The notes beneath the pieces are model-generated. The model saw only the letters and a program-made list of their open reading frames with translations. It searched no databases and was not told the DNA's origin. Source: an uncultured virus (IMG/VR IMGVR_UViG_3300009183_000053) (lineage: Duplodnaviria > Heunggongvirae > Uroviricota > Caudoviricetes). Taken from it: 64,000 bases of DNA. The translations under genes and the position numbers were made by a program. Location of the stretch: IMG/VR virus record IMGVR_UViG_3300009183_000053. One strand, given 5' to 3'. The stretch's first letter is position 1. Each line of letters starts with the position of its first letter. Shown one piece after another: positions 11,744-21,076 of the stretch.

Positions 11744-12520
11744 ATGGATCCATTCACACTCTTTGCCCTCGCAAATGGTGCGGTTTCGGCAGTCAAAGCC
11801 GGATGTAAACTATACAAAGATATTAAAGGTGCAGCTGGGGAAGTCAAGGACGTCCTCAAGGATCTTGACGACCAGTTCAAAAAGCTCCATCCACCAGAAA
11901 AACCTGCAAGTGTAGCACAAAGAAATGCCTTCATTACGGAAAAAAATCGTGTAATTGAACTAAACAAAAAGGGTGGAGAAACTACCAACATCTACCAAGA
12001 GATTGGTGAACACCTAGGCACATACTATGATAACTTTTATAAATGTATGGCTGTTTTTGAAGAAGAAGAAAAAATTGCTAAGACACAAGTTTATACCGGA
12101 GATGCATCATTAGGTAAACGTGCCTTACAACGTGTACTCATGCGTAAACAACTTGAACAAATGTCAGTTGATTTACGTGAGTTGATGATTTATCAAAGTC
12201 CTCCAGAGCTCGGTGCTTTATATACCGAAGTCGAAGAAATGATGAAAGAGATGGGTAAAGAACAAAAGGTTCTTCTTATCAAACAAATGCAACAACAAGC
12301 GATATTAGATAAACGCCGTTTAGCACGAATGAGAAAACTCAGAGATGAATTTGCTACAGGCGTTGCTATTGTGATTATAATTTTTGTTATGGCTGGTGTG
12401 TTTATGTGGGTAGCATATGATAGACAACAGAAATATCCACAATATGGTGATGGGTTATTTCCTAAATCAGAAGAAAAAAGAAGGGAAGAATCAATGCCTA
12501 AAGTTTACGTAGGAAGATGA
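11744..12520 (+). CDS. Hypothetical protein with C-terminal transmembrane helix
   Basis: 258 aa. CTAAATA late-type promoter at about 11659. Confidence 0.75.
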   Translation: MDPFTLFALANGAVSAVKAGCKLYKDIKGAAGEVKDVLKDLDDQFKKLHPPEKPASVAQRNAFITEKNRVIELNKKGGETTNIYQEIGEHLGTYYDNFYKCMAVFEEEEKIAKTQVYTGDASLGKRALQRVLMRKQLEQMSVDLRELMIYQSPPELGALYTEVEEMMKEMGKEQKVLLIKQMQQQAILDKRRLARMRKLRDEFATGVAIVIIIFVMAGVFMWVAYDRQQKYPQYGDGLFPKSEEKRREESMPKVYVGR

Positions 12521-12804
12521 ATAAAAAACTCTTATTTACGTTGTTGACCACAAGTGTAACACTGATGGTCACTCATCCAACCATCAATATAAACTTGATG
12601 CCGGATGCTGTCATATACACCAAAGCGACTAACAATAATGATTATTGTAAATTGACAAGAAGTTTTACTGAAAAAAGTGGACCGAAAGATTTACAAGTCT
12701 GTGAATATAAATGTTCAAATGTAAAACGAAATGGTTCTACATTGATACATACAACTTCAGTAAACAATTCACGTTCTTGCAAAGATAAAATTGAATCGCC
12801 GTGA
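12517..12804 (+). CDS. Small exported Cys-containing protein
   Basis: ATGA overlap with the previous gene, signal-peptide-like N-terminus and 4 Cys. Confidence 0.65.
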   Translation: MNKKLLFTLLTTSVTLMVTHPTININLMPDAVIYTKATNNNDYCKLTRSFTEKSGPKDLQVCEYKCSNVKRNGSTLIHTTSVNNSRSCKDKIESP

Positions 12805-12818
12805 TGTATAAAGATTAA

Positions 12819-12891
12819 TGGTTGCGGGTCACGGAGTCGAACCGGAACTGAGGATTATGAGCCCACTGTGATACCATTTCACCAACCCGCT
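12819..12891 (-). tRNA. tRNA-Met(CAT), probably initiator
   Basis: Unpaired position 1/72, CTCATAA loop, GTTCGA and CCA end. Confidence 0.85.
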
Positions 12892-12894
12892 ATA

Positions 12895-13122
12895 TTAGTT
12901 GTCGTATAAACCTAATCTTTGATTTTCTGCCACCATGGCATCTAAAGCCTTTTGGCGCATACGATTTTCTTCTAAAATTCTATCAAATTCTTCTTGTTCG
13001 TATTTGTCTTCTTGTATTTCTTTTGGTGATTTTTTTCTAAAAATATTGTCGTAGTTATTACCAAATGTTTTCTGTGAAACACTAAACGGCCTTGGACTAG
13101 AACCTTTACCACCATCAGACAT
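12895..13122 (-). CDS. Hypothetical protein
   Basis: 75-aa ORF directly after GroES. Confidence 0.65.
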   Translation of the reverse strand: MSDGGKGSSPRPFSVSQKTFGNNYDNIFRKKSPKEIQEDKYEQEEFDRILEENRMRQKALDAMVAENQRLGLYDN

Positions 13123-13124
13123 GT

Positions 13125-13370
13125 TTACTCTCCGTAGATGTAAGCTATGTCTTCAATCTTCACCACGAAATAATCTTGCACTGCTGCGGCCTTACCCCAG
13201 TCTGGTTGAACCACATCACCGACCTGGACTTCTGTAACATCCGGACCAACTGCAAGTACTCTTGCTTTATCTGGATCTTCGGAATGTTTTAGGATGATGC
13301 CTGAAGCGGTCTCTTTGACATTCTCAATACGTTCAATCAATACTTTATCATGCAAGGGTTTAATATTCAT
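13125..13370 (-). CDS. groES: GroES-like co-chaperonin
   Basis: MNIKPLHDKVLI...TASGIIL...LAVGP. Start moved to ATG 13370, which follows a GAGGA RBS. Confidence 0.9.
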   Translation of the reverse strand: MNIKPLHDKVLIERIENVKETASGIILKHSEDPDKARVLAVGPDVTEVQVGDVVQPDWGKAAAVQDYFVVKIEDIAYIYGE

Positions 13371-13383
13371 AGTGTCCTCAAAA

Positions 13384-13450
13384 TGGAGCGGTCTACTGCT
13401 TTGCTCAGTTAACACAAGGGGGTACCTTGTATCGTACTATTACAAACCGC
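13384..13450 (-). ncRNA. Atypical 67-nt tRNA-Gly-like RNA lacking a D-stem
   Basis: 7-bp acceptor GCGGTTT/AGACCGC, U73-CCA end and anticodon-like hairpin ACAAG-GTACCCC-CTTGT. Confidence 0.7.
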
Positions 13451-13456
13451 ATTAAA

Positions 13457-13530
13457 TGGAGCGGGATGAGAGAATCGAACTCTCAACCGGAGATTGGAAA
13501 TCTACTGTTTTACCACTAAACTAATCCCGC
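13457..13530 (-). tRNA. tRNA-Gly(TCC)
   Basis: Cloverleaf with TTTCCAA loop and TCCA end. Confidence 0.92.
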
Positions 13531-13552
13531 ATAAAATCTGTTGTAGTTAACT

Positions 13553-13627
13553 TGGAGCGGGTAGTGAGAATCGAACTCACAACTAAACCTTGGCAAGGTC
13601 TTGTGTTACCACTAGCACCATACCCGC
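13553..13627 (-). tRNA. tRNA-Gly(GCC)
   Basis: Cloverleaf with TTGCCAA loop and TCCA end. Confidence 0.92.
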
Positions 13628-13638
13628 ATCATGTGTGT

Positions 13639-13667
13639 ATTATATAGGCTTCTTATTAAGAAGTCAA
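13639..13667 (-). promoter_or_regulatory. Internal sigma70 promoter for the Gly tRNAs and groES
   Basis: TTGACT-N17-TATAAT. Confidence 0.75.
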
Positions 13668-13677
13668 GCATTATTTT

Positions 13678-13760
13678 TGGTACGAGTAACCGGAGTCGAA
13701 CCGGTACGCCGAGGCGGCAGATTTTAAGTCTGATGGGTCTACCAATTCCCCCATACTCGC
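13678..13760 (-). tRNA. tRNA-Leu(TAA)
   Basis: CTTAAAA loop, variable arm and ACCA end. Confidence 0.92.
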
Positions 13761-13761
13761 A

Positions 13762-14340
13762 TCACATAGCACGGTCGTTTCCACTTTTGAAACCGACCTC
13801 ACCACCTTCTTCTTTAATTCGTTTGATAACATCTTCAAAAAGAATCGGTCTAAAATCTGTTTGTTCAACACAAACACAATGGTATCTGTTATCAATACCC
13901 ATTGGTTTACCATTGAACCCACGAATCTGAACACGATTGGAATGTAAATGGCCATGGATGTTTACACCGAAACGACCAAGACTTTCCGTATGAATTGGAA
14001 TATGTGACAGGATCATTCCATTCATTACATGATAAGCACGTAGTTCACGAAAGTGTTGTCTGTATTCCTCATCACGGAAGATATCATGGTTACCACGAAT
14101 AAGAACCTTATCACCGTTAAGTCTATATAGAGTATTCATTGCTTTACGATTAATAACAACATCACCAAGATGGTAAACTTTATCGTTTGGTCTGACTGTT
14201 TCGTTCCAACGCTTAATCATTTCTTCATCCATTTCATCGGGATTATCCCATGGCCGAAGTTTTGTTCCGTCATCACGAAGAAATCTACACACACCAGCGT
14301 GACCAAAGTGTGTGTCACTTACTAAAAATACTGCTGGCAT
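13762..14340 (-). CDS. Calcineurin-like metallophosphoesterase
   Basis: SDTHFGH, HLGD, GNHD and HGHLH. Confidence 0.9.
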   Translation of the reverse strand: MPAVFLVSDTHFGHAGVCRFLRDDGTKLRPWDNPDEMDEEMIKRWNETVRPNDKVYHLGDVVINRKAMNTLYRLNGDKVLIRGNHDIFRDEEYRQHFRELRAYHVMNGMILSHIPIHTESLGRFGVNIHGHLHSNRVQIRGFNGKPMGIDNRYHCVCVEQTDFRPILFEDVIKRIKEEGGEVGFKSGNDRAM

Positions 14341-14357
14341 AATAAACTCCTAAAAAA

Positions 14358-14432
14358 TGGTCCGGCGTGAGAGAATCGAACTCCCATTAGAAGGGTAGAA
14401 GCCTACTGTATTATCCATTATACTAACGCCAG
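14358..14432 (-). tRNA. tRNA-Arg(TCT)
   Basis: Cloverleaf with TCT anticodon and CCA end. Confidence 0.88.
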
Positions 14433-14437
14433 AAATT

Positions 14438-14514
14438 TGGTGCCCCAGGAGAGACTCGAACTCTCAAAATTTGGCTTCTAAGACCAACACGTATACCAAT
14501 TCCGTCACCGGGGC
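14438..14514 (-). tRNA. tRNA-Leu(TAG), short variable loop
   Basis: Leu-type D arm, CTTAGAA loop and A73. Confidence 0.88.
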
Positions 14515-14527
14515 AATAAATACTCAT

Positions 14528-14752
14528 ATGATACCAACTTCAAAAAGACCTACAGTAGAAATGTTTTACGGATTGTATGCACAACAAACATATGAACCTA
14601 ATGGTTACTACTGTGTTGATTCTGAATTTGTTCCATCATATGATACTAAGATAAAAACTTTTGAAGATGATGAATTATATATCACACAAGAAAAAGAATT
14701 TATCTTAACAACATTAAAACAAGTTGGTGCTCCTACTAAGAATCGAACTTAG
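14528..14752 (+). CDS. Possible small antisense ORF within the tRNA array
   Basis: 74 codons filling a 210-nt gap, with AATAAATA ending 5 nt before the ATG. Confidence 0.45.
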   Translation: MIPTSKRPTVEMFYGLYAQQTYEPNGYYCVDSEFVPSYDTKIKTFEDDELYITQEKEFILTTLKQVGAPTKNRT

Positions 14753-14798
14753 GATACATCCTTACCATGGATGTGGTATGCCATTTACCTATAAGAGC
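14725..14798 (-). tRNA. tRNA-Thr(GGT)
   Basis: CATCC-ATGGTAA-GGATG anticodon arm. Confidence 0.9.
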
Positions 14799-14799
14799 A

Positions 14800-14876
14800 T
14801 GGTACCCAAGGTGGGATTCGAGCCCACATAACCTTGATTTTGAATCAAGTACGTATACCTATTCCGTCACTTGGGC
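14800..14876 (-). tRNA. tRNA-Leu(CAA), short variable loop
   Basis: CTTGA-TTCAAAA-TCAAG arm and T-loop CTCGAAT. Confidence 0.86.
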
Positions 14877-14881
14877 ATATT

Positions 14882-14957
14882 TGGTGCTGCCTAGAGGAAT
14901 CGAACCTCTTTCAATGGTTCTTCAGACCACCGCTATGACCACATCAGCTAAAGCAGC
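14882..14957 (-). tRNA. tRNA-Phe(GAA)
   Basis: CTGAAGA loop and ACCA end. Confidence 0.9.
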
Positions 14958-14961
14958 ATGT

Positions 14962-15036
14962 TGGTACCCCGTGACAGTTTCGAACTGCCGACCTTCGCCG
15001 TGTAAAAGCACTGCTCTACCACTGAGCTAACGGGGC
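14962..15036 (-). tRNA. tRNA-Val(TAC)
   Basis: TTTACAC loop and canonical D/T arms. Confidence 0.9.
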
Positions 15037-15041
15037 ATATT

Positions 15042-15116
15042 TGGGGAGAAATACCAGGATCGAACTGGTGATAACGGAATCACAACCCGTGGTTTTACCA
15101 CTAAACTAATTTCTCC
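15042..15116 (-). tRNA. tRNA-His(GTG)
   Basis: Encoded G-1:C73 pair and TTGTGAT loop. Confidence 0.9.
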
Positions 15117-15119
15117 ATA

Positions 15120-15605
15120 TTATTGAAGTGCTTCTTGGTCTGCCAAGATTCTTTTCAATCTATCAGCACAAAAACTTGCAGCAGGTGCATCTGGTTTAAC
15201 CATTGGTGTCATATTACATGTACCTTTGATATAACCAATCGCTTGCTGAACAACACATGAACTACCATGAATATCATCTTTATTTAAATCAAGATGAACT
15301 TCAACATGATAATCTTCCAACACTTCTGCTAATGATTGGAACAATTCTGAAACTTTATAAACTTCAGTCATCAACCTCATAGCAGGTTTACTTTTCTTAT
15401 GGTCGTAATCCAATTCACGGTGAACATATCCGAAAATCTTACAACCATGTCGGCCATCAATATGAACTACAACTGCTAGAGCATAGTCAGCATACCAAAC
15501 ACCATTTACCCTGATTCTTTCAGAGTCGGCACCAAGATAAACCTTGGTATCAGGACCTTGATTTGCAAGGTATTGTCTGACTTCTTCTATATTGAAATTT
15601 TTCAT
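15120..15605 (-). CDS. RNase H-like YkuK (DUF458) family protein
   Basis: VYLGADS, RLMTEV, EVHLDLN, KPDAPAAS and AD motifs. Start moved to 15605. Confidence 0.8.
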   Translation of the reverse strand: MKNFNIEEVRQYLANQGPDTKVYLGADSERIRVNGVWYADYALAVVVHIDGRHGCKIFGYVHRELDYDHKKSKPAMRLMTEVYKVSELFQSLAEVLEDYHVEVHLDLNKDDIHGSSCVVQQAIGYIKGTCNMTPMVKPDAPAASFCADRLKRILADQEALQ

Positions 15606-15626
15606 ATTAATCACCTTTTTTAAAAT

Positions 15627-15700
15627 TGGCATCCCGCTAGGGACTCGAACCCCAACCAACGGTTTTGGAGACCGCTATGCTGCCATTACACCAGCGAGAA
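15627..15700 (-). tRNA. tRNA-Trp(CCA)
   Basis: CTCCAAA loop and G73. Confidence 0.88.
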
Positions 15701-15703
15701 ATT

Positions 15704-15778
15704 TGGTACCGAGAAAGAGAATTGAACTCTTGGCCAACGCCTTATCAAGACGCTGCTCTACCACTGAGCTACCTCGGC
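15704..15778 (-). tRNA. tRNA-Ile(GAT)
   Basis: TTGATAA loop and A73. Confidence 0.85.
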
Positions 15779-15782
15779 ATTT

Positions 15783-15857
15783 TGGAGGGCGATGAGAGAA
15801 TCAAACTCCCACTTCAAGGTTCGTAGCCTTGTGTAATATTCATTTTACTAATCGCCC
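15783..15857 (-). tRNA. tRNA-Arg(ACG)
   Basis: CAAGG-CTACGAA-CCTTG arm. Confidence 0.87.
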
Positions 15858-15863
15858 ATAATT

Positions 15864-15938
15864 TGGTGGTTCAGGTGAGAATCGAACTCACACAACGCAC
15901 CGTATGAAGATGCTGCACTGCCACTATGCTACTGAACC
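15864..15938 (-). tRNA. tRNA(CAT), probably elongator Met
   Basis: GCATC-TTCATAC-GGTGC arm. Confidence 0.8.
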
Positions 15939-15942
15939 TAAT

Positions 15943-16017
15943 TGGTGGAGGCCGAGGAAATCGAATCCTTCTAGTCACGATCCTTGCAAGGGAACGCCGC
16001 AGCCCACTGCTGCCCCC
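15943..16017 (-). tRNA. Atypical tRNA-Ala(TGC)
   Basis: G3:U70 pair, A73, CTTGCAA loop and a 4-nt D-loop. Confidence 0.8.
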
Positions 16018-16025
16018 AAAAAAAC

Positions 16026-16101
16026 TGGTCTCCCTGCAAGGATTCGAACCTTGACCACACGGCCCCAAACCGTGTACGCAACCTGATAACGCTTCAGAGA
16101 G
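16026..16101 (-). tRNA. tRNA-Pro(TGG)
   Basis: C1:G72 pair and CACGG-TTTGGGG-CCGTG arm. Confidence 0.88.
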
Positions 16102-16107
16102 AAAAAC

Positions 16108-16181
16108 TGGTGCCCCATGACAGAATCGAACTGCCGTAACCTGATTACAAAACAGGTGTAATGCCATTATACTAATAGGGC
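16108..16181 (-). tRNA. tRNA-Thr(TGT)
   Basis: TTTGTAA loop. Confidence 0.9.
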
Positions 16182-16186
16182 GAAAT

Positions 16187-16395
16187 TAAGTGCTCTGCAT
16201 CCTGCGGCGGTAATTATATCATAGTTGTAAACATGTCCTTTTTCAAGGGGAATACACCCATAACCTCCACCCGCTTCCCGACCAGGATCGTTAACGCATT
16301 GCCAGCGGCCTTTCGGTAAAAAGACTACCACCCTTGAGAGTCACCTCACTTCTTATCCTGCGGGTCACAGTATCCGCTAACCAAGCGGAACGTAT
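16187..16395 (-). ncRNA. Candidate structured ncRNA 1 in the tRNA array
   Basis: GC-rich spacer with several helices and no ORF in the track. Confidence 0.6.
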
Positions 16396-16470
16396 TGGCT
16401 CCAGAGGCAGGGATCGAACCTACGACCAATTGATTAACAGTCAACTGCACTACCGCTGTGCTACTCTGGA
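16396..16470 (-). tRNA. tRNA-Asn(GTT)
   Basis: CTGTTAA loop and G73. Confidence 0.92.
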
Positions 16471-16477
16471 ATATTCT

Positions 16478-16834
16478 TTATACTAACTCGTATTCTAAAT
16501 CTACTGATTCGGAATAGTAACCGTTTGATTCTCCCAACCAACGAACATCAACATAACCTTTGCGTGTAGCAAATTTGTAAAATGTCCATGAGCGAGATTC
16601 AATGTATTCATCTTCTTTAGGTTCTGGTATTTCACCTGATACTTCTTCAGCAATCAAAAGTGTTTCGCCTTCTAAATCCGATAACTCACCTACAATGCTT
16701 TCAATGTAAACTGTTTCGCAACAATCTTGATAATGGAAGAATCTGAATTTTTCAGTTTCATTCGCAAATACCATCTCATAACCATCTTGTGTTACCGATG
16801 TGAATACTTTTCCAACCATATCGTTTATATTCAT
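16478..16834 (-). CDS. Hypothetical phage protein
   Basis: HYQDCCE and WLGESNGYYS motifs. Start at ATG 16834. Confidence 0.75.
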   Translation of the reverse strand: MNINDMVGKVFTSVTQDGYEMVFANETEKFRFFHYQDCCETVYIESIVGELSDLEGETLLIAEEVSGEIPEPKEDEYIESRSWTFYKFATRKGYVDVRWLGESNGYYSESVDLEYELV

Positions 16835-16859
16835 TTTCTTTTCCTTCACAACAATTATT

Positions 16860-16934
16860 TGGCGGTCTTAAGGGGTAACGATCCCCTTCTTTCAGCGTGA
16901 CAGGCTGATGTGCGTCCATGAACACTTTAAGACC
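16860..16934 (-). tRNA. tRNA-Asp(GTC)
   Basis: CTGTCAC loop and atypical T-loop ATCGTTA. Confidence 0.85.
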
Positions 16935-16937
16935 AAA

Positions 16938-17126
16938 TTAGGATAAGCTACTTGTTTCCACACAAGCCCTTAATTGAGAAGTTACTCTGTCCATCCCTTT
17001 TATTCTAATGTCTGTGTGCAGAGGGAACTGCCTATCAGAGCCTGAGATTTCTCTCGCTAACGGTTTTCTGCCACCGGATCTCTATCGCTAATCAAACGCT
17101 ACTTTAACGGAAGTAGTAACGGGATT
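16938..17126 (-). ncRNA. Candidate structured ncRNA 2 in the tRNA array
   Basis: Several hairpins including a GAAA tetraloop. Confidence 0.55.
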
Positions 17127-17219
17127 TGGTGGAGGCAGTTGGAGTCGAACCAACATTGTTTACCACGGGGGAACGGATTTACAGTCCGCTGCAGAACACG
17201 CCATATCTACAATGCCTCC
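17127..17219 (-). tRNA. tRNA-Tyr(GTA)
   Basis: CTGTAAA loop and long variable arm. Confidence 0.88.
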
Positions 17220-17291
17220 ATATAGAAACACACTCACCCGAATGGACTTATCCTGAGTTCCGCCTGCTGTCGGAAGTGTGTTTTTATATGG
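17218..17291 (-). repeat. Spacer stem-loop element, copy A
   Basis: CCATATAAAAACACACT-N40-AGTGTGTTTCTATATGG. Confidence 0.85.
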
Positions 17292-17363
17292 TAGGGGTAC
17301 AGAGAATCGAACTCTGATTAATAGGTTAAAAGCCTACTACTTTAGCCGTTAAGTTATACCCCC
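17289..17363 (-). tRNA. tRNA-Lys(TTT)
   Basis: CTTTTAA loop. Confidence 0.9.
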
Positions 17364-17368
17364 ATAAC

Positions 17369-17495
17369 TACCATTTGTTTTGCTGACGCACTATTTGCTA
17401 TGCTCAACGGATTTAGCTGCAGCATTACCGTTTATACACATAGTTAGTTAGAGTTGACGTTTACTCAAGCGCTTACGTCAGCAAAACAAATGGTA
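17369..17495. repeat. Perfect 20-bp inverted repeat enclosing 87 nt
   Basis: TACCATTTGTTTTGCTGACG (17369-17388) and CGTCAGCAAAACAAATGGTA (17476-17495). Confidence 0.9.
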
Positions 17496-17565
17496 CTCCG
17501 TACCAGAATCGAACTGGTCTTTCCGCCTTGAAAGGGCAGCGTCCTAACCGATAGACGAACGGAGC
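17491..17565 (-). tRNA. tRNA-Glu(TTC)
   Basis: TTTCAA-containing anticodon loop and CCA end. Confidence 0.9.
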
Positions 17566-17580
17566 ATTAACTACAACAAA

Positions 17581-17674
17581 TTTTTAAAGAACGTTTGATT
17601 GATTTCTCAATTCATAGATGAAGTATAACACAACCATGAATCATTGTCAACCAGACTGTTGTATTCCTACAACA
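17581..17674 (-). promoter_or_regulatory. Sigma70 promoter with upstream palindrome, boxB-like hairpin and boxA
   Basis: TTGACA(17645-50)-N17-TATACT, TTGA-GAAA-TCAA and GTTCTTTAAAAA(17581-92). Confidence 0.8.
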
Positions 17675-17678
17675 TGTT

Positions 17679-17754
17679 TGGAGTAGGTGACAGGAATCGA
17701 ACCTGCATGTAACAGATTTGCAATCTGCTCCCTAGCCTTTCGGGTCACACCTAC
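17679..17754 (-). tRNA. tRNA-Cys(GCA)
   Basis: TTGCAAA loop and U73. Confidence 0.9.
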
Positions 17755-17760
17755 ATGTTT

Positions 17761-17848
17761 TGGCAGAAGGTATCGGATTCGAACCGATGCGCCGCTTTCG
17801 CAACGACAGTTTAGCAAACTGCTCCCTTAACCGCTCGGGCAACCTTCT
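17761..17848 (-). tRNA. tRNA-Ser(GCT)
   Basis: TTGCTAA loop, long variable arm and G73. Confidence 0.9.
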
Positions 17849-17853
17849 ATGTT

Positions 17854-17945
17854 TGGCGGAAGACGGAGGAGTCGAACCCCATCCCATTTCTGAGAACCTG
17901 GTTTTCAAGGCCAGTCGCAGGACCAACCCCGCTGCATCATCTTCC
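17854..17945 (-). tRNA. tRNA-Ser(TGA)
   Basis: CTTGAAA loop, long variable arm and G73. Confidence 0.9.
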
Positions 17946-18018
17946 ATATAGAAACACACTAAACGAGGCGACCCGTTTCGAACCAGTTCCTGCTTATCTC
18001 TAATGTGTTTTTATATGG
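17944..18018 (-). repeat. Spacer stem-loop element, copy B
   Basis: CCATATAAAAACACATTA-N39-TAGTGTGTTTCTATATGG. Confidence 0.85.
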
Positions 18019-18089
18019 CTGGGGTACCTTGAATCGAACAAGGACCTACGGATTCAAAGTCCGCAGCACTACCACTATGCTATACCCCA
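18016..18089 (-). tRNA. tRNA-Gln(TTG)
   Basis: U1:A72 pair and CTTTGAA loop. Confidence 0.9.
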
Positions 18090-18104
18090 ATAAACTACGA
18101 CAAA

Positions 18105-18176
18105 TTTTTAAAGAACAGTGTGTATTGTATACCAGATTCGATGACCTGGCAACCACTGTGTTGTATTGAAACAACA
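18105..18176 (-). promoter_or_regulatory. Sigma70 promoter with upstream palindrome and boxA
   Basis: TTGCCA(18147-52)-N17-TACAAT and GTTCTTTAAAAA(18105-16). Confidence 0.75.
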
Positions 18177-18177
18177 A

Positions 18178-18212
18178 ACAAAAAACCCTAGATTTTTTAG
18201 GTCTAGGGTCTT
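18178..18212 (-). terminator. Intrinsic terminator (putative attenuator)
   Basis: ACCCTAGA-loop-TCTAGGGT followed by TTTTTGTTTG. Confidence 0.85.
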
Positions 18213-18242
18213 GTGTTTGAAGTCTTTTTTAGAACTTATGTA

Positions 18243-18353
18243 TTAGTTCTCTCTCTTTACACAAAACCCAGTCGGCGCCCATGAGCTATCACCACAATTA
18301 ATTGTGCGATACTCGGACTGTAACGTAAAGGGTTTATGTTTAAAATTTTTCAT
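18243..18353 (-). CDS. Putative leader peptide containing all 20 amino acids (36 aa)
   Basis: MKNFKHKPFTLQSEYRTINCGDSSWAPTGFCVKREN*. ATG begins 7 nt after TATAAT and the 3' end overlaps the antiterminator strand. Confidence 0.75.
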   Translation of the reverse strand: MKNFKHKPFTLQSEYRTINCGDSSWAPTGFCVKREN

Positions 18354-18359
18354 AGTGTT

Positions 18360-18388
18360 ATTATATAGGAACTTTTATGTCTTGGCAA
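18360..18388 (-). promoter_or_regulatory. Sigma70 promoter of the leader peptide and tRNA array
   Basis: TTGCCA-N17-TATAAT. Confidence 0.8.
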
Positions 18389-18401
18389 GCGGTTTTTAAA
18401 A

Positions 18402-18935
18402 TTATTTTTTAAATCCGTAAAAAAATAATTCGGGAGTATTATTTGTTTCAAACTTGTAAGTATGAAACATACTATCCATATCAAAGTTTTTACAAAAATC
18501 TTCTTCTGTAAGATTACTGTAATATTCCCAACCTTTTGCAATGGTTAAAGGACTATCATTTGGTGCTTTATTAGATGTACCATGTTCAGGATAACCTGTT
18601 GTTGGTACTACGATAAAAACTAATCCATCTTTTTTGGTCATACGATACATGTTTTGAAATGTTTCTATCCAATGTGGATTGTGTTCGAAACAATTACAAG
18701 AACCTGTGGTGTCGTATGTGCCATCTGCATGGTCGACAAGCTGGCCTTCACAAACCAAGTCAACATCTTTTCCTGCATCAACGTCAACACCAACATACTC
18801 ACATTCATTAAAATGTATCTTCATGGTACCGTTGATATTTAAACTACCAACTTCCAACATCTTTATGTTATTGAAGTTTTGTGGAAAATCCGATGATAAC
18901 TTTTTTACAAACTCTTGTTGAGTTGGATGTGACAT
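18402..18935 (-). CDS. Class I SAM-dependent methyltransferase
   Basis: MLEVGS, YVGVD and FEH...KKDGLVFI. Confidence 0.85.
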   Translation of the reverse strand: MSHPTQQEFVKKLSSDFPQNFNNIKMLEVGSLNINGTMKIHFNECEYVGVDVDAGKDVDLVCEGQLVDHADGTYDTTGSCNCFEHNPHWIETFQNMYRMTKKDGLVFIVVPTTGYPEHGTSNKAPNDSPLTIAKGWEYYSNLTEEDFCKNFDMDSMFHTYKFETNNTPELFFYGFKK

Positions 18936-18938
18936 ATT

Positions 18939-19445
18939 TTATTTTTTCCAGGCAATCGGGTTATAATTTATTGGACCAGATGGATCAACAAAATCATCAA
19001 GTATTTCCCATAGATTTTCTGATACAGCAAACTTTGTAATAAGTCCAGGTTCACGGCCGTAAGCATCTATCTCCCATGGCTGAATCCAATAATCAATCTT
19101 ATCTGGATCAACCTTCTTACCTCGCCATCTGGTCAACTCATCATTCGTTTCACCATCAATATATTGTTTCACATGAACCATTTCATGCGCCAAGGTTTCC
19201 AGTATTCTTCTGGATCCGATATTTGGATTTATTTCTATTAGGAATTCTCTAGGTAGTTTTCTTGTATTATAATCTTCAATACTAGCAAAACCATATTCAG
19301 TTATTTTGGTACAAAATTTAATTTCTGTTATACAATTATTTCTTATTCGTGTATTAGGTATTAATTCTTTAGCGAAGAATTGGGCAGCTCTTTCAACAAA
19401 GGGCTTAAAATCTTTGTCTGGACAGTTAACCACACGAATAATCAT
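18939..19445 (-). CDS. Zinc metallopeptidase-like protein (HExxH)
   Basis: LAHEMVHVKQ and PWEIDAY. Confidence 0.8.
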   Translation of the reverse strand: MIIRVVNCPDKDFKPFVERAAQFFAKELIPNTRIRNNCITEIKFCTKITEYGFASIEDYNTRKLPREFLIEINPNIGSRRILETLAHEMVHVKQYIDGETNDELTRWRGKKVDPDKIDYWIQPWEIDAYGREPGLITKFAVSENLWEILDDFVDPSGPINYNPIAWKK

Positions 19446-19489
19446 CCTGGTCTCCTAAGGGCACAATTACCCCAAGTTATTTAGGAGAA

Positions 19490-20005
19490 TTAGATTTTTT
19501 CTACCCAGACTGATGCTTTTTGTAGGAATTCGATACCATCATCACTCCGATAAGAGTTCCGATATAGAACACTGCTAATACCACTTTGGTAGATAAGTTT
19601 GGCACAGTCCAAACATGGAGCGTGGGTAACAAACATAGTAGCACCCATACCAGATTCGGTAGACTTAGCAAGTTTTGCAATCGCATTAGTTTCAGCATGT
19701 AAAACCTCTGGTTTAGTTTTGAGTGCATATCTTCTCCAACGATTGTCTTCCTTTGGAAGCATCTGTTCTTTGTTTGGCCAGCGTTCTTCAATCTCATTCA
19801 AATCCAACCAACCGCCAGCATCAACACTCATGTATTCTTTATCTTCACAATCATTATCCCAACCTGAAGGCATACCATTGTAACCAATTGAAATGATTCT
19901 ATCATCTTTGACTACAATAGCACCAACATGAAGTCTGCGAGCCGAGGACAATTGTGCAAATGTCTCGGCCACTTTCATATATGCATTACGAAATTTTGTT
20001 TTCAT
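19490..20005 (-). CDS. cd: dCMP deaminase
   Basis: GYNG, HAETNAI and PCLDC. Confidence 0.93.
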   Translation of the reverse strand: MKTKFRNAYMKVAETFAQLSSARRLHVGAIVVKDDRIISIGYNGMPSGWDNDCEDKEYMSVDAGGWLDLNEIEERWPNKEQMLPKEDNRWRRYALKTKPEVLHAETNAIAKLAKSTESGMGATMFVTHAPCLDCAKLIYQSGISSVLYRNSYRSDDGIEFLQKASVWVEKI

Positions 20006-20018
20006 ATTTTTTTAAAAT

Positions 20019-20093
20019 TGGTGGGCTGACTAGGAATTGAACCTAGACTCAATGAATTATGAGTTCACTGCTTTACCATTAAGCTATCAGCCC
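20019..20093 (-). tRNA. tRNA(CAT), probably Ile2 (lysidine)
   Basis: GGGC acceptor start, CTCATAA loop and A73. Confidence 0.85.
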
Positions 20094-20276
20094 TTATCTG
20101 ATATATTCTAATGATTCTTTTCGCATTAATTTAGGTGTTTCCCTAATACCAATGTTCTTAATTACATAAACAAATTGAACACCATCAATCTCTTTAGTCT
20201 CTGGTGAACAAACGTAGTAATTCTCCAACGTGGTTTTAACACGAACTTTTTTGATGTATTGTTTTTCAGTTTTCAT
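20094..20276 (-). CDS. Hypothetical protein
   Basis: 60-aa ORF just after a promoter. Confidence 0.55.
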   Translation of the reverse strand: MKTEKQYIKKVRVKTTLENYYVCSPETKEIDGVQFVYVIKNIGIRETPKLMRKESLEYIR

Positions 20277-20285
20277 AATGTCTAT

Positions 20286-20322
20286 ATTATAACACAAAAA
20301 AAAGGGTCTGTCAAGACCCTTT
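20286..20322 (-). terminator. Terminator overlapping a sigma70 promoter
   Basis: AAAGGGTC-TTGACA-GACCCTTTTTTTT, followed by TATAAT 17 nt after TTGACA. Confidence 0.8.
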
Positions 20323-20406
20323 ATGATTATCTACCTTTTAAGGTATGGTCTGACCTGTGTTCTTTGATGGCCTGTATGGCTTCAAGTATACTTTGTAGAA
20401 ATTTTT

Positions 20407-20850
20407 TCATTCTTTGGCCTTGATTGAAATTTTCTTAATAGCATCTTGTGCTTTGACCATGTTTTCTAGCCAAATCTTCAACATACCATTCATCAACTCT
20501 GCATCTTTGATTTCAACTTTGTCTGCGAGAGTGAAGGTACGTTCAAATGCACGGTTGGCAATGCCTTTGTACAAATATTCTTCTTCCTCTGCGTCTTTAG
20601 ATGCAGCTTTAATTACAAGTTTGTTTCCTTCCAAAGTCATCTCAATATCAGACTTTGCGAAACCAGCAACAGCCATTTCAATGACGTACTTGTTTGCAGT
20701 TACCTGTTTGATGTTGTATGGAGGATAAGATACGGCTTTAGATGCAGCCGCTGCAGCTTCACGCATGATTGACATTGTGTCATCAAATCCCACGGTGAAT
20801 GGTTGAATTTTGCCGAAATCGACACCGAAATAATCTTTAAGATTAGTCAT
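20407..20850 (-). CDS. Small heat-shock protein (Hsp20/IbpA-like)
   Basis: SYPPYNI, IEMAVAGF, YLYKGIANRAFERTF and NGML. Confidence 0.95.
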   Translation of the reverse strand: MTNLKDYFGVDFGKIQPFTVGFDDTMSIMREAAAAASKAVSYPPYNIKQVTANKYVIEMAVAGFAKSDIEMTLEGNKLVIKAASKDAEEEEYLYKGIANRAFERTFTLADKVEIKDAELMNGMLKIWLENMVKAQDAIKKISIKAKE

Positions 20851-21076
20851 AAGTTTCTCCTGAAAGCGAGATTAAAAATTGATACCCCGAAGGCGTATCG
20901 CTTAAGGTACTGGTTACGTTATCCAGCGGCAATTACGTCTGCCCGTTTTACTAACGCTCCTAAGGTAGGTGGAGCACCTTTTTCCTGGAGTATTAAGTCT
21001 CGGTAGGACCAGGTTCCACCTTTGACTTTTCCCATCCCGATGGGACTATTATAACAATATTTATATCAGTTGTCAA
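20851..21076 (-). promoter_or_regulatory. Hsp20 promoter(s) and structured 5' leader with ROSE-like hairpin
   Basis: TTGACA-N17-TATAAT with TATAAATA inside the spacer, and TCTCGCT...AGGAGA over the RBS. Confidence 0.65.

What the first reader, a model, noticed from the sequence alone, without database searches (positions are those of the whole stretch)
18178..18388. Candidate pan-amino-acid attenuator controlling a complete phage tRNA array
Seen (minus strand): (1) Promoter TTGCCA-N17-TATAAT (18388-18360), with an ATG starting 7 nt after the -10 box, so the mRNA is probably leaderless. (2) A 36-codon ORF, MKNFKHKPFTLQSEYRTINCGDSSWAPTGFCVKREN (18353-18243), containing all 20 amino acids and 29 different codons. 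Repeated residues use different synonymous codons (Thr ACG/ACA/ACT, Ser TCC/AGC/TCA, Pro CCC/CCG, Gly GGT/GGG, Arg CGC/AGA), many G/C-ending despite the AT-rich genome. (3) An intrinsic terminator (ACCCTAGA/TCTAGGGT + U-tract) directly before the tRNA array. (4) Codons 29-32 (GGGTTTTGTGT, 18269-18259) can form an 11-bp helix, with one G-U, with ACACAAGACCC (18216-18206), which overlaps the terminator's 5' arm, so the two helices are mutually exclusive. Known: trp/his-type attenuators have this layout but sense one or a few amino acids. Inference: full translation masks the antiterminator and terminates transcription. Stalling at almost any earlier codon (starvation, or tRNA cleavage by host anticodon nucleases such as PrrC, RloC or PARIS AriB) gives read-through into tRNAs for all 20 amino acids. 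I know of no description of this, but could not search.
Basis: partly seen in the sequence, partly recalled or inferred. Interest (0 to 1): 0.95.

Follow-up and report, generated by a model that had tools for sequence, protein, structure and literature searches.

The report
Twenty-amino-acid leader switch before phage tRNAs
A short translated reading frame that spells out nearly every amino acid sits in a conserved RNA on/off switch just ahead of the tRNA genes of a group of freshwater T4-like phages, which suggests that the phage measures how well translation is running before it decides how many tRNAs to make.

Summary
One genome alone would not make the case: 2 of 781 mechanical ORFs of 30-45 codons in this phage hold all 20 amino acids. 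Relatives do make it. IMG/VR holds 114 distinct sequence contexts of the same module. All 114 are followed by a same-strand tRNA gene. 22 of them have no room for a second promoter. The terminator and the competing helix both change on both strands between subfamilies. That competing helix pairs the ORF's 3' end with the 5' half of the terminator. The ORF stays open with frame-keeping indels and two initiation modes, while its residues drift almost neutrally. Of 79 distinct leader peptides (30-45 aa), 51 hold all 20 amino acids and 16 hold 19. Three tree-keeping nulls give 20-27 complete, and the other frames give none.

I read it as a ribosome-dependent transcription attenuator that reports general charged-tRNA supply. 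Caveats are a second promoter in 89 of 90 long-spacer contexts, only 19 amino acids covered by the tRNA array, valine lying mostly inside the masked arm, and no expression data. Four literature searches found no description.

The parts
18383..18388 (-). P1 promoter, -35 hexamer TTGCCA
   Evidence: It is TTGCCA or TTGACA in the aligned relatives.
18360..18365 (-). P1 promoter, -10 hexamer TATAAT, 6 nt before the ATG
   Evidence: The -10 columns are invariant or nearly so in 51 aligned relatives. 42 of 91 distinct upstream+ORF sequences have a -10-like hexamer 5-8 nt before an ATG.
18243..18353 (-). Leader ORF of 36 codons plus TAA, holding all 20 amino acids
   Evidence: The ORF is conserved as an open frame in 84 distinct nucleotide versions, while the +1 and +2 frames carry a mean of 1.85 and 3.63 stops. 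51 of 79 distinct peptides are complete.
18330..18339 (-). Region 1 (ACAUAAACCC, codons 5-8): candidate anti-antiterminator partner of region 2
   Evidence: It is paired with region 2 in the MFE fold. In 65 of 84 leaders the best upstream partner of region 2 starts at codons 3-6, but the energy is not beyond shuffles (mean z -0.57). On A2 it is 73.8% paired against 28-51% when slid, with no covariation excess.
18277..18318 (-). Predicted central hairpin inside the ORF (core UAUCGC...GUGAUA, 18311-18287)
   Evidence: It appears in the MFE folds of representatives. It is not supported on the MAFFT alignment: 64.4% paired, and a slide of -3 gives 71.1%.
18259..18269 (-). Region 2 (GGGUUUUGUGU, codons 29-32): 5' arm of the antiterminator
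   Evidence: In all 79 distinct leaders the best ORF partner of region 3 lies 3-11 codons before the stop, with dG from -9.6 to -22.3 kcal/mol.
18231..18250 (-). Small predicted hairpin across the stop codon (GAGAAC...GUUCUA)
   Evidence: MFE folds only. Its role is unknown.
18206..18216 (-). Region 3 (ACACAAGACCC): 3' arm of the antiterminator, sharing ACCC with the terminator
   Evidence: The 2:3 helix on A2 is 83.0% paired against 36-69% when slid. 6 of 11 pairs change on both sides. 33 double-changed cells compare with 13.8 +/- 2.7 in shuffles (0 of 500).
18180..18209 (-). Intrinsic terminator: 8-bp stem (18209-18202 with 18192-18185), 9-nt loop, U-tract
   Evidence: It is 86.8% paired against 24-66% when slid. 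6 of 8 pairs change on both sides. 89 double-changed cells compare with 29.6 +/- 3.9 (0 of 500). It is the only helix in the RNAalifold consensus.
18160..18175 (-). Conserved small hairpin GUUGU-loop-ACAAC between the terminator and P2
   Evidence: Seen in the alignment of relatives, with variants such as GTGTTG...CAACAC. Not analysed further.
18124..18152 (-). P2 promoter TTGCCA-N17-TACAAT
   Evidence: 10 of 12. A like site lies between terminator and tRNA in 89 of 90 distinct contexts with a 31-150 nt spacer.
18016..18089 (-). tRNA-Gln(UUG), first gene of the array (25 ARAGORN tRNAs down to 12819)

Best explanation
This is a ribosome-dependent (leader-peptide) transcription attenuator at the head of the phage's tRNA gene array.

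How I think it works:
- Promoter P1 starts an mRNA whose first codon is at or next to the 5' end.
- A ribosome translates the 36-codon leader while RNA polymerase moves on.
- The last part of the ORF (region 2) has two possible partners. One is region 3, and that pairing destroys the terminator stem. The other is region 1, earlier in the ORF, and that pairing leaves the terminator free.
- If the ribosome runs quickly to region 2 and the stop codon, it masks region 2. The 3:4 terminator then forms and the transcript ends near 18180.
- If the ribosome is delayed anywhere before region 2, region 2 pairs with region 3. Polymerase then reads on into tRNA-Gln and the array, adding to transcription from P2.
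- The leader holds almost every amino acid once or a few times and uses many rare codons. Its transit time therefore reports the general supply of charged tRNAs, or elongation speed, rather than one amino acid. The result would be a feedback: poor tRNA supply gives more phage tRNA transcription.

What is shown: the sequence elements, their conservation and covariation, their linkage to tRNA genes, and the frame-specific amino-acid completeness.

What is inferred: translation of the ORF, the direction of the switch, the signal, and any link to host tRNA-cleaving defences.
For: 1. Anatomy. All elements are present at the stated places.

2. Linkage to tRNA genes.
- Of 222 leader instances, 211 have at least 150 nt of downstream flank. 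208 of those 211 have a same-strand tRNA downstream.
- After removing duplicates there are 114 distinct contexts, and all 114 are followed by a tRNA. In 22 the tRNA starts within 30 nt of the U-tract.
- The first tRNA differs between contexts: Gln, Ser, Trp or Pro.

3. The switch.
- The terminator covaries.
- The 2:3 helix covaries. Explicit examples are GGGTCTTATGT/ACATAAGACCC, GGGGTTTTTGAA/TTCAAAAACCTC, GGGTTAGGTGA/TCACCAAACCC and AGAGGTTAGATGA/TCAAATAACCTCT.
- In all 79 distinct leaders the partner of region 3 lies 3-11 codons before the stop.
- In the window the two states are nearly iso-energetic: -47.1 kcal/mol for the MFE fold (terminator plus 1:2 pairing) against -46.1 with the 2:3 helix forced.

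4. Translation.
- 84 distinct ORF versions all stay open, whereas the other two frames carry stops.
- Indels keep the frame.
- 42 leaderless starts are all ATG. All 35 GTG or TTG starts follow a roughly 30-nt leader with an SD-like motif.
- Variable sites fall 81/86/112 at codon positions 1/2/3. 33 variable codons change only synonymously and 119 change the residue. The residues therefore drift while the frame is kept.

5. Completeness.
- 51 of 79 distinct peptides have 20 kinds, 16 have 19, 4 have 18, 7 have 17 and 1 has 16.
- The chance of 20 kinds in 36 residues is 1.3% with uniform frequencies, 0.10% with the phage's own composition and 0.026% in windows of its real proteins. For 31 residues it is 0.2% uniform and 0 of 43,771 windows.
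- Nulls that keep the tree pattern give 20.3 +/- 5.0 complete (maximum 39 of 1500 runs), 20.7 +/- 5.0 (maximum 39 of 2000) and 27.1 +/- 5.1 (maximum 45 of 2000).
- Frames +1 and +2 of the same DNA give 0 of 84 complete, with a mean of 15.7-15.8 kinds against 19.36 in frame.

6. Rare codons are enriched. A published model (PMC1183508, abstract) names rare regulatory codons as one source of attenuator sensitivity.

7. The short 30-aa leaders (16-18 kinds) head arrays covering only 10-14 amino acids. Leaders with 18-20 kinds head arrays covering 18-20 (32 distinct leader/array pairs with apparently complete arrays). This amounts to essentially two clades.
Against: - P2 follows the terminator in the window and in 89 of 90 long-spacer contexts. 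Further promoter-like sites lie inside the array at 17650, 16246, 15146 and 13667. The switch can therefore only add to tRNA transcription.
- The 1:2 helix is weak: mean z -0.57, and no covariation above shuffles.
- RNAalifold on the mixed alignment returns only the terminator.
- The central hairpin is not supported on that alignment.
- In a trp-type geometry only codons before region 2 can cause read-through. That window holds a mean of 16.5 kinds. Internal Met is missing from it in 64 of 79 leaders, Val in 60, Trp in 37, Ala in 31, Gly in 27 and His in 21.
- The completeness signal depends on the residues after Trp complementing those before it: z = 4.6 for the whole ORF, 3.0 for the part up to Trp and -0.1 for the part after. 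The model does not explain this.
- Single codons per amino acid should give low sensitivity to mild starvation (inference from PMC1183508, abstract).
- 28 of 79 leaders are incomplete.
- Residues missing from a leader do not match tRNAs missing from its array, and the window's array lacks tRNA-Ala although the leader has Ala.
- There is no usable expression evidence. Metatranscriptome contigs are fragmentary.
- The host is unknown.
Confidence: 0.55

Rival explanations
1. The attenuator is real, but the signal is not the supply of all charged tRNAs. Three alternatives fit. It could report whether ribosomes initiate at all (general translation capacity or ribosome availability early in infection). 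It could respond to one or a few limiting codons. Or a conserved nascent-peptide segment (EYRT...SW) could arrest the ribosome in response to some ligand. On any of these readings amino-acid completeness is secondary.
For: - The switch anatomy is as for the main reading.
- 2:3 (-9.6 to -22.3 kcal/mol) is at least as stable as 1:2 (-6.6 to -14.3) and as the terminator hairpin (-9.8 to -15.7). An untranslated leader might therefore read through.
- The motifs EYRT and SW are very conserved.
- Val and often Gly and Ala lie where a stall cannot cause read-through.
Against: - Completeness is specific to the frame and is kept beyond three tree-preserving nulls.
- The conserved motifs are conserved at synonymous sites too. 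GAGTATCGCACA and TCATGG are nearly invariant in the helix-anchored alignment. That points to an RNA or DNA constraint rather than a peptide one.
- The distance from Trp to the stop codon varies from 7 to 26 residues. This argues against a fixed arrest geometry.
- Elsewhere the residues drift almost neutrally.
Confidence: 0.22
2. The ORF is an ordinary small phage protein gene with its own promoter and terminator. It merely lies next to the tRNA array, which is transcribed from P2. The long-range helix would serve mRNA stability or have no function.
For: - P2 is present in 89 of 90 long-spacer contexts.
- The peptide has recognisable conserved motifs and often two Cys.
- Small phage genes with their own promoter and terminator are common (general knowledge).
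Against: - 22 of 114 distinct contexts have the tRNA within 30 nt of the U-tract and no P2.
- The helix that covaries is mutually exclusive with the terminator.
- Substitutions are nearly neutral: 33 synonymous-only against 119 residue-changing variable codons, and variable sites fall 81/86/112 by codon position. This is unlike a folded protein.
- No Pfam family matches.
- The module is never found away from tRNA genes in 114 contexts.
Confidence: 0.08
3. It is a purely RNA-based switch, for example one that binds a protein, a small molecule or a tRNA in the manner of a T-box, and the ORF is incidental.
For: - Two mutually exclusive helices with covariation are present.
- Sequence blocks are conserved at synonymous sites.
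- The element is linked to tRNA biology.
Against: - No Rfam family (T-box, riboswitch or leader) matches in 12000-21000 at E <= 1.
- The frame is kept open in 84 versions while the other frames carry stops.
- An SD-like motif appears exactly where the start is not at the 5' end.
- Completeness is frame-specific.
Confidence: 0.07
4. It is a chance association of a promoter-like site, a short ORF and the terminator of the upstream gene.
For: - In this genome alone 2 of 781 short ORFs hold 20 kinds.
- Promoter-like sites are barely more frequent than in shuffles: 34 against 25.6 +/- 6.6.
Against: Every comparative result listed above argues against it.
Confidence: 0.02

Closest known systems
Leader-peptide transcription attenuators of amino-acid biosynthetic operons (trp, his, leu, thr, ilv, phe of enterobacteria). 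Described in passages of PMC4007540 and the abstract and section 12 of PMC1183508; the rest is general knowledge.
   Same: - A short ORF lies right after the promoter.
- An intrinsic terminator precedes the regulated genes.
- An antiterminator overlaps the terminator's 5' arm, and its other strand lies where the ribosome sits.
- An upstream segment may be able to sequester that strand.
- Rare codons are used.
   Different: - There is no run of codons for one amino acid. Instead nearly every amino acid appears once or a few times.
- The regulated genes are tRNAs, not enzymes.
- It is carried by a phage.
[quoted passage not shown]
- No Rfam leader family matches.
Ribosome-mediated attenuators that respond to general translation inhibition, for example the bmrCD leader of Bacillus subtilis (PMC4191407; only the search listing and the start of the abstract were seen).
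   Same: The speed of translating an upstream ORF decides between terminator and read-through. The signal is a state of the translation machinery rather than one metabolite.
   Different: Those control drug-efflux or resistance genes and respond to antibiotics. Here the output is tRNA genes, and the leader's composition looks tuned to all amino acids.
T-box riboswitches (general knowledge; not read here).
   Same: They couple tRNA charging to a terminator/antiterminator choice.
   Different: T-boxes bind one uncharged tRNA directly, have no ORF, and control aminoacyl-tRNA synthetase and related genes. No T-box match was found in the Rfam scan.
Leaderless leader peptides predicted in Deinococcus deserti (PMC4007540, passages read).
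   Same: The leader peptide's start codon lies at the transcription start. The predicted role is attenuation of translation-related genes (tRNA synthetases).
   Different: Those peptides are rich in one residue, for example two Cys in ten residues before cysS. They are bacterial, not viral, and do not precede tRNA genes.

Membership tests
Leader-peptide (ribosome-mediated) transcription attenuator | A short ORF directly downstream of a promoter that is translated | tested here: met
   The ORF starts 6 nt after the -10 box. The frame is open in 84 distinct versions while the other frames have stops. An SD-like motif precedes all 35 GTG/TTG starts, and all 42 leaderless starts are ATG. Translation itself is inferred, not observed.
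Leader-peptide (ribosome-mediated) transcription attenuator | An intrinsic terminator between the leader ORF and the regulated genes | tested here: met
   An 8-bp stem plus U-tract lies at 18209-18180. Covariation is seen at 6 of 8 pairs. tRNA genes lie downstream in 114 of 114 distinct contexts.
Leader-peptide (ribosome-mediated) transcription attenuator | An antiterminator helix mutually exclusive with the terminator, with one strand in the path of the ribosome | tested here: met
   The 2:3 helix shares ACCC with the terminator. It is 83.0% paired against 36-69% when slid, and 6 of 11 pairs change on both sides. Its 5' arm lies 3-11 codons before the stop in 79 of 79 leaders.
Leader-peptide (ribosome-mediated) transcription attenuator | An anti-antiterminator (1:2) that gives termination when the leader is not translated | tested here: inconclusive
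   It is present in MFE folds. Its position is consistent in 65 of 84 leaders. Its energy is not beyond shuffles, and there is no covariation excess.
Leader-peptide (ribosome-mediated) transcription attenuator | A cluster of regulatory codons for the amino acid that the operon supplies | tested here: not met
   There is no run of any codon. Instead 51 of 79 leaders hold all 20 amino acids. This is the respect in which it departs from the classical family.
Leader-peptide (ribosome-mediated) transcription attenuator | Read-through rises when the ribosome stalls in the leader | not testable with these tools
   This needs reporter or in vitro assays. The metatranscriptome contigs were uninformative.
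Rfam leader and riboswitch families (Trp, His, Leu, Thr leaders, T-box and others) | A match to the curated covariance model | tested here: not met
   cmscan of 12000-21000 at E <= 1 lists tRNAs and a few weak unrelated hits only, and nothing over 18178-18388.
Phage tRNA array covering all 20 amino acids | tRNA genes for every amino acid | tested here: not met
   The window genome has 26 ARAGORN tRNAs for 19 amino acids and no Ala. In relatives, 8 of 32 distinct leader/array pairs reach 20 kinds. ARAGORN can miss genes, so these are lower bounds.

The most novel reading that the evidence does not exclude
A phage-encoded homeostat. A single 'pangram' leader peptide, holding every amino acid and rich in rare codons, lets the ribosome test the whole pool of charged tRNAs in about two seconds. 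An RNA switch turns any shortfall into more transcription of the phage's own tRNA genes. The shortfall could come from starvation, from host shut-off, or from tRNA cleavage by host anticodon nucleases. This would be the first attenuator that senses global tRNA supply, the first known to control tRNA genes, and a regulated arm of phage counter-defence.
Probability: 0.4. Interest if true: 0.95.

Novelty: new variant of a known kind. Interest (0 to 1): 0.85.

Why it matters
Phage tRNA arrays are usually discussed as static gene sets that match codon usage or replace tRNAs destroyed by the host. A conserved switch in front of them would mean that their expression is regulated by the state of translation itself.

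The design differs from known leader peptides. Those signal one amino acid through a run of its codons. Here the selected property appears to be that all amino acids are present in 31-45 codons.

If the mechanism holds, three things follow:
- It gives a compact natural sensor of overall charged-tRNA supply, which could be used as a reporter.
- It gives a new way to find regulated tRNA operons: look for short ORFs with all 20 amino acids followed by a terminator.
- It gives a testable link between tRNA-targeting host defences and the phage response.

Tried and rejected
- Metatranscriptomes. 17 RNA rows hold parts of 17600-18900. Four runs were laid as contigs. The pieces are short, come partly from relatives, and cannot show transcript ends or exclude DNA. 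One contig (X4, record 30) covers 18180-18318 and then runs into 18 unlike letters. Another (X2, record 13) spans 18006-18200. I draw nothing from them.
I did not pad or retry it, so I cannot say whether gene callers have predicted this ORF.
- GenBank phages. blastn of 18000-18700 found only tRNA-like matches in 11 records and nothing over the leader.
- Bacterial and archaeal genomes. This does not show absence.
- RNAalifold on the 73-sequence MAFFT alignment gives only 5 terminator pairs. The alignment mixes subfamilies with shifted registers.
- The central hairpin is not supported on that alignment.
- A first structure string was unbalanced and was corrected.
- 'Different synonymous codons for repeated residues' is not beyond chance (P = 0.14).
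- One-to-one match between residues missing from a leader and tRNAs missing from its array: not found.
- A hairpin-dependent RNA polymerase pause at the conserved TCATGGGCG block was considered from a recalled consensus. The spacing does not hold in the PFIGSDNQ subfamily, so I dropped it.
- Literature. Four full-text searches found no leader peptide with all amino acids and no attenuator before phage tRNA genes. Subscription journals are not covered.
Full report
**Setting**

The window is the minus strand of a 179,754-bp virus record with direct terminal repeats. It is 37.3% G+C. Its DNA polymerase is about 50% identical to those of T4-like cyanomyoviruses.

The finding lies between a methyltransferase-like gene (18402-18935, Pfam Methyltransf_23) and a run of tRNA genes on the same strand. 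That run holds 25 ARAGORN calls from 18089 to 12819, with one more tRNA at 20093.

**Check of the observation**

- P1 is TTGCCA-N17-TATAAT at 18388-18360. It scores 11 of 12 in the scan.
- The ATG is at 18353, six bases after the -10 box.
- The ORF has 36 codons, 20 amino-acid kinds and 29 distinct codons.
- The terminator is an 8-bp stem with a 9-nt loop and a U-tract at 18209-18180.
- GGGTTTTGTGT (18269-18259) is complementary to ACACAAGACCC (18216-18206), which shares ACCC with the terminator's 5' arm.

Taken alone, the all-20 ORF is not remarkable. Two of 781 mechanical ORFs of 30-45 codons in this genome have 20 kinds.

Two side statements fail.
- The genome has tRNAs for 19 amino acids. 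There is no tRNA-Ala, and one extra sub-threshold tRNA-like hit lies at 17858-17945.
- The use of different synonymous codons is within chance (P = 0.14).

The excess of rare codons is real. The CAI-like value is 0.49, below all 132 long ORFs, and resampling gives P = 0.00015.

**Relatives**

I collected relatives from IMG/VR with four searches that used different anchors:
- the neighbouring methyltransferase (39 loci);
- the two helix arms (79 loci);
- the promoter plus leaderless ATG (59 loci, some unrelated).

This gave 222 leader instances and 114 distinct sequence contexts. The large contigs among them are about 157-177 kb, so they are the same kind of phage.

GenBank phages hold nothing similar over the leader. 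A capped scan of bacterial genomes found nothing like it: 0 of 120 listed loci.

**Always before tRNA genes**

- Of 211 instances with at least 150 nt of downstream flank, 208 have a same-strand tRNA. The other three have only 153-156 nt of flank.
- After removing duplicates, 114 of 114 contexts have a tRNA. It lies 31-150 nt from the U-tract in 90, within 30 nt in 22, and further away in 2.
- The first tRNA is Gln, Ser, Trp or Pro, so the module is not tied to one gene.
- In 89 of the 90 long-spacer contexts a second promoter-like site (P2) lies between terminator and tRNA, as at 18152-18124 in the window.
- The 22 short-spacer contexts have no room for one. There, transcription from upstream must pass the terminator to reach the tRNAs.

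**The RNA switch**

I aligned 73 distinct leaders with MAFFT (A2).

| Helix | Cells paired | Slid controls | Pairs changed on both sides | Double-changed cells vs shuffles |
|---|---|---|---|---|
| Terminator (3:4) | 86.8% | 24-66% | 6 of 8 | 89 vs 29.6 +/- 3.9 (0 of 500) |
| Antiterminator (2:3) | 83.0% | 36-69% | 6 of 11 | 33 vs 13.8 +/- 2.7 (0 of 500) |

The shuffle control does not correct for relatedness, so the slid controls and the explicit examples matter more. Subfamilies carry these arm pairs:
- GGGTCTTATGT / ACATAAGACCC. Relative to the window, a G-C pair is replaced by A-U and the G-U pair by G-C.
- GGGGTTTTTGAA / TTCAAAAACCTC.
- GGGTTAGGTGA / TCACCAAACCC.
- GGGGGTAGTGGAAC / GTTTCACAACCCTC.
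- AGAGGTTAGATGA / TCAAATAACCTCT.

In all 79 distinct leaders the best partner of region 3 within the ORF lies 3-11 codons before the stop, with energies from -9.6 to -22.3 kcal/mol. Terminator hairpins range from -9.8 to -15.7.

In the window the two states differ by 1 kcal/mol: -47.1 for the MFE fold, which has the terminator plus the 1:2 pairing, and -46.1 with the 2:3 helix forced.

MFE folds also pair region 2 with an upstream ORF segment, region 1 (ACAUAAACCC, codons 5-8). Within each subfamily region 1 resembles region 3. This would complete the classical 1:2 / 2:3 / 3:4 layout, but the support is weak:
- The position is consistent. The partner starts at codons 3-6 in 65 of 84 leaders.
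- The energies are not beyond shuffles. Mean z is -0.57, and 18 of 84 fall below -1.64.
- There is no covariation excess.

RNAalifold on A2 returns only the terminator. A predicted central hairpin is not supported on that alignment. No Rfam family matches.

**Is the ORF translated?**

- All 84 distinct nucleotide versions are open from start to stop. Frames +1 and +2 carry a mean of 1.85 and 3.63 stops. Six of 84 have no stop in frame +1 and none of 84 in frame +2.
- Length differences inside the ORF keep the frame.
- Two initiation modes alternate among close relatives. In 42 of 91 distinct upstream+ORF sequences an ATG sits 5-8 nt after a -10-like hexamer. In 41 a leader of about 30 nt with an SD-like motif precedes GTG (28), ATG (6) or TTG (7). 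Eight are unclear. An SD-like motif thus appears when, and only when, the start is not at the 5' end.
- The residues themselves drift. Variable sites fall 81/86/112 at codon positions 1/2/3. Among variable codons, 33 change only synonymously and 119 change the residue. That is not the pattern of a folded protein.
- The most conserved blocks (GAGTATCGCACA, TCATGG) are conserved at synonymous sites too. This points to an RNA or DNA constraint.

**Amino-acid completeness**

The 79 distinct peptides of 30-45 residues distribute as follows:

| Amino-acid kinds | Peptides |
|---|---|
| 20 | 51 |
| 19 | 16 |
| 18 | 4 |
| 17 | 7 |
| 16 | 1 |

Several reach 20 kinds in 31 residues, for example MNKLIHITKQCPEYRTFSDNGSWAPASEVCV.

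Expectation for 20 kinds:

| Length | Uniform frequencies | Phage composition | Windows of the phage's real proteins |
|---|---|---|---|
| 36 residues | 1.3% | 0.10% | 0.026% |
| 31 residues | 0.2% | 0.017% | 0 of 43,771 |

The peptides are related, so I used nulls that keep which sequences share which state in every alignment column and randomise only the identity of the non-majority residues.

| How derived residues were drawn | Complete of 79 | Maximum |
|---|---|---|
| From the pooled family composition | 20.3 +/- 5.0 | 39 in 1500 runs |
| From zone-specific composition | 20.7 +/- 5.0 | 39 in 2000 runs |
| Permuted among the residues seen in the same column | 27.1 +/- 5.1 | 45 in 2000 runs |
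| Observed | 51 | |

Concrete compensations are visible. One variant lost His at position 6, turned the Arg of EYRT into His and gained Arg after Trp (L049). Another moved Gln by one position (L078 against L051).

The property belongs to the reading frame. The same DNA read in frames +1 and +2 gives 15.7-15.8 kinds and 0 of 84 complete, against 19.36 kinds and 54 of 84 in frame.

**What this does not explain**

In a trp-type geometry only a ribosome delayed before region 2 frees that arm. Codons 2 to four before region 2 hold a mean of 16.5 kinds. Missing from that window are internal Met in 64 of 79 leaders, Val in 60, Trp in 37, Ala in 31, Gly in 27 and His in 21.

Diversity is raised in the part up to Trp (z = 3.0) but not in the part after it (z = -0.1). 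The whole ORF is raised more (z = 4.6). The tail therefore supplies what the head lacks. Val, Gly and Ala make up 0.9%, 2.6% and 2.4% of residues before Trp and 10.4%, 16.5% and 7.8% after it.

A stall on those late codons should favour termination, not read-through. Why completeness extends to them is unexplained.

**Leader and array compared**

Among 32 distinct leader/array pairs whose array looks complete (at least 1.5 kb beyond the last tRNA), two groups appear:
- Six 30-aa leaders with 16-18 kinds head arrays of 10-14 tRNAs covering 10-14 amino acids.
- Twenty-six leaders with 18-20 kinds head arrays of 21-31 tRNAs covering 18-20 amino acids.

This is suggestive, but it amounts to about two clades. 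At the level of single residues there is no match. Leaders lacking Gln, His, Ala or Val sit before arrays that have those tRNAs. The window's array lacks tRNA-Ala while its leader has Ala.

**Reading**

The best-supported account is a ribosome-dependent attenuator that adds P1-driven read-through to P2-driven transcription of the tRNA array. Its leader is built to be slow whenever charged tRNAs in general are scarce.

A published model describes attenuation as a race between transcribing the leader and translating its regulatory codons. It names rare codons and a high share of regulatory codons as sources of sensitivity (PMC1183508, abstract). [quoted passage not shown] Leaderless leader peptides have been predicted before tRNA synthetase genes in Deinococcus deserti (PMC4007540, passages).

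My confidence by layer:

| Claim | Confidence |
|---|---|
| The switch is real and tied to translation | about 0.8 |
| The signal is general tRNA supply | about 0.5 |
| All 20 amino acids are truly sensed | lower |

A link to host anticodon nucleases is only an idea. My knowledge of those systems is recalled and not from any call.

**Novelty**

Four full-text searches found no leader peptide defined by holding all amino acids and no attenuator before phage tRNA genes. The mechanism class is known. The input logic, the regulated genes and the carrier are new.

Noticed in passing
window 20094-20322 (-): A perfect promoter TTGACA-N17-TATAAT lies at 20314-20286, and its -35 hexamer sits in the loop of a terminator-like hairpin (20322-20301). 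It is followed after 9 nt by an ATG (20275) that opens a roughly 60-codon ORF. The TAA of that ORF directly abuts tRNA-Met (20093-20019). This is another promoter-proximal ORF running into a tRNA gene.
   Followed up: partly
window 17858-17945 (-): A tRNA-like sequence is missed by ARAGORN and found only as a sub-threshold Rfam tRNA-Sec hit (35.3 bits, gathering score 47). By my reading of its anticodon loop it looks like tRNA-Ser(UGA). Relatives have an ARAGORN-called tRNA-Ser(tga) right after the leader.
   Followed up: partly
whole record G000; window 12819-20093: No tRNA-Ala is detected in a phage that carries tRNAs for the other 19 amino acids. Three tRNAs have the CAT anticodon. Some relatives have arrays covering all 20 amino acids (8 of 32 distinct leader/array pairs).
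   Followed up: partly
window 18160-18175 (-): A small hairpin GTTGT-loop-ACAAC lies between the terminator and P2. It is conserved in relatives, with variants such as GTGTTG...CAACAC. Its function is unknown.
   Followed up: no
window 13765-14340, 15123-15659, 16481-16849 (-): Protein genes lie interspersed in the tRNA array: a metallophosphoesterase-like protein, an RNaseH-like protein and a DUF7448 protein. Promoter-like sites inside the array are at 17650-17622, 16246-16218, 15146-15119 and 13667-13639.
   Followed up: no
L007, L015, L018 versus L002-L006: In close relatives the neighbouring methyltransferase is 88-98% identical, yet the leader switches between a leaderless ATG start and a roughly 30-nt leader with an SD-like motif and a GTG start. 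The N-terminal residues are replaced at the same time.
   Followed up: partly
L126, L152, L174, L178, L181: In the 31-aa subfamily a strong TTGACA-N17-TATACT promoter lies about 90 nt upstream of the leader ATG. A second -10-like box lies just before the ATG. What the extra 5' region does is unknown.
   Followed up: no
L044, L052, L070, L083: Four loci carry the 30-aa leader directly after the stop codon of a protein gene, with no recognisable P1 -35/-10 pair. There the leader may be read from an upstream transcript.
   Followed up: no
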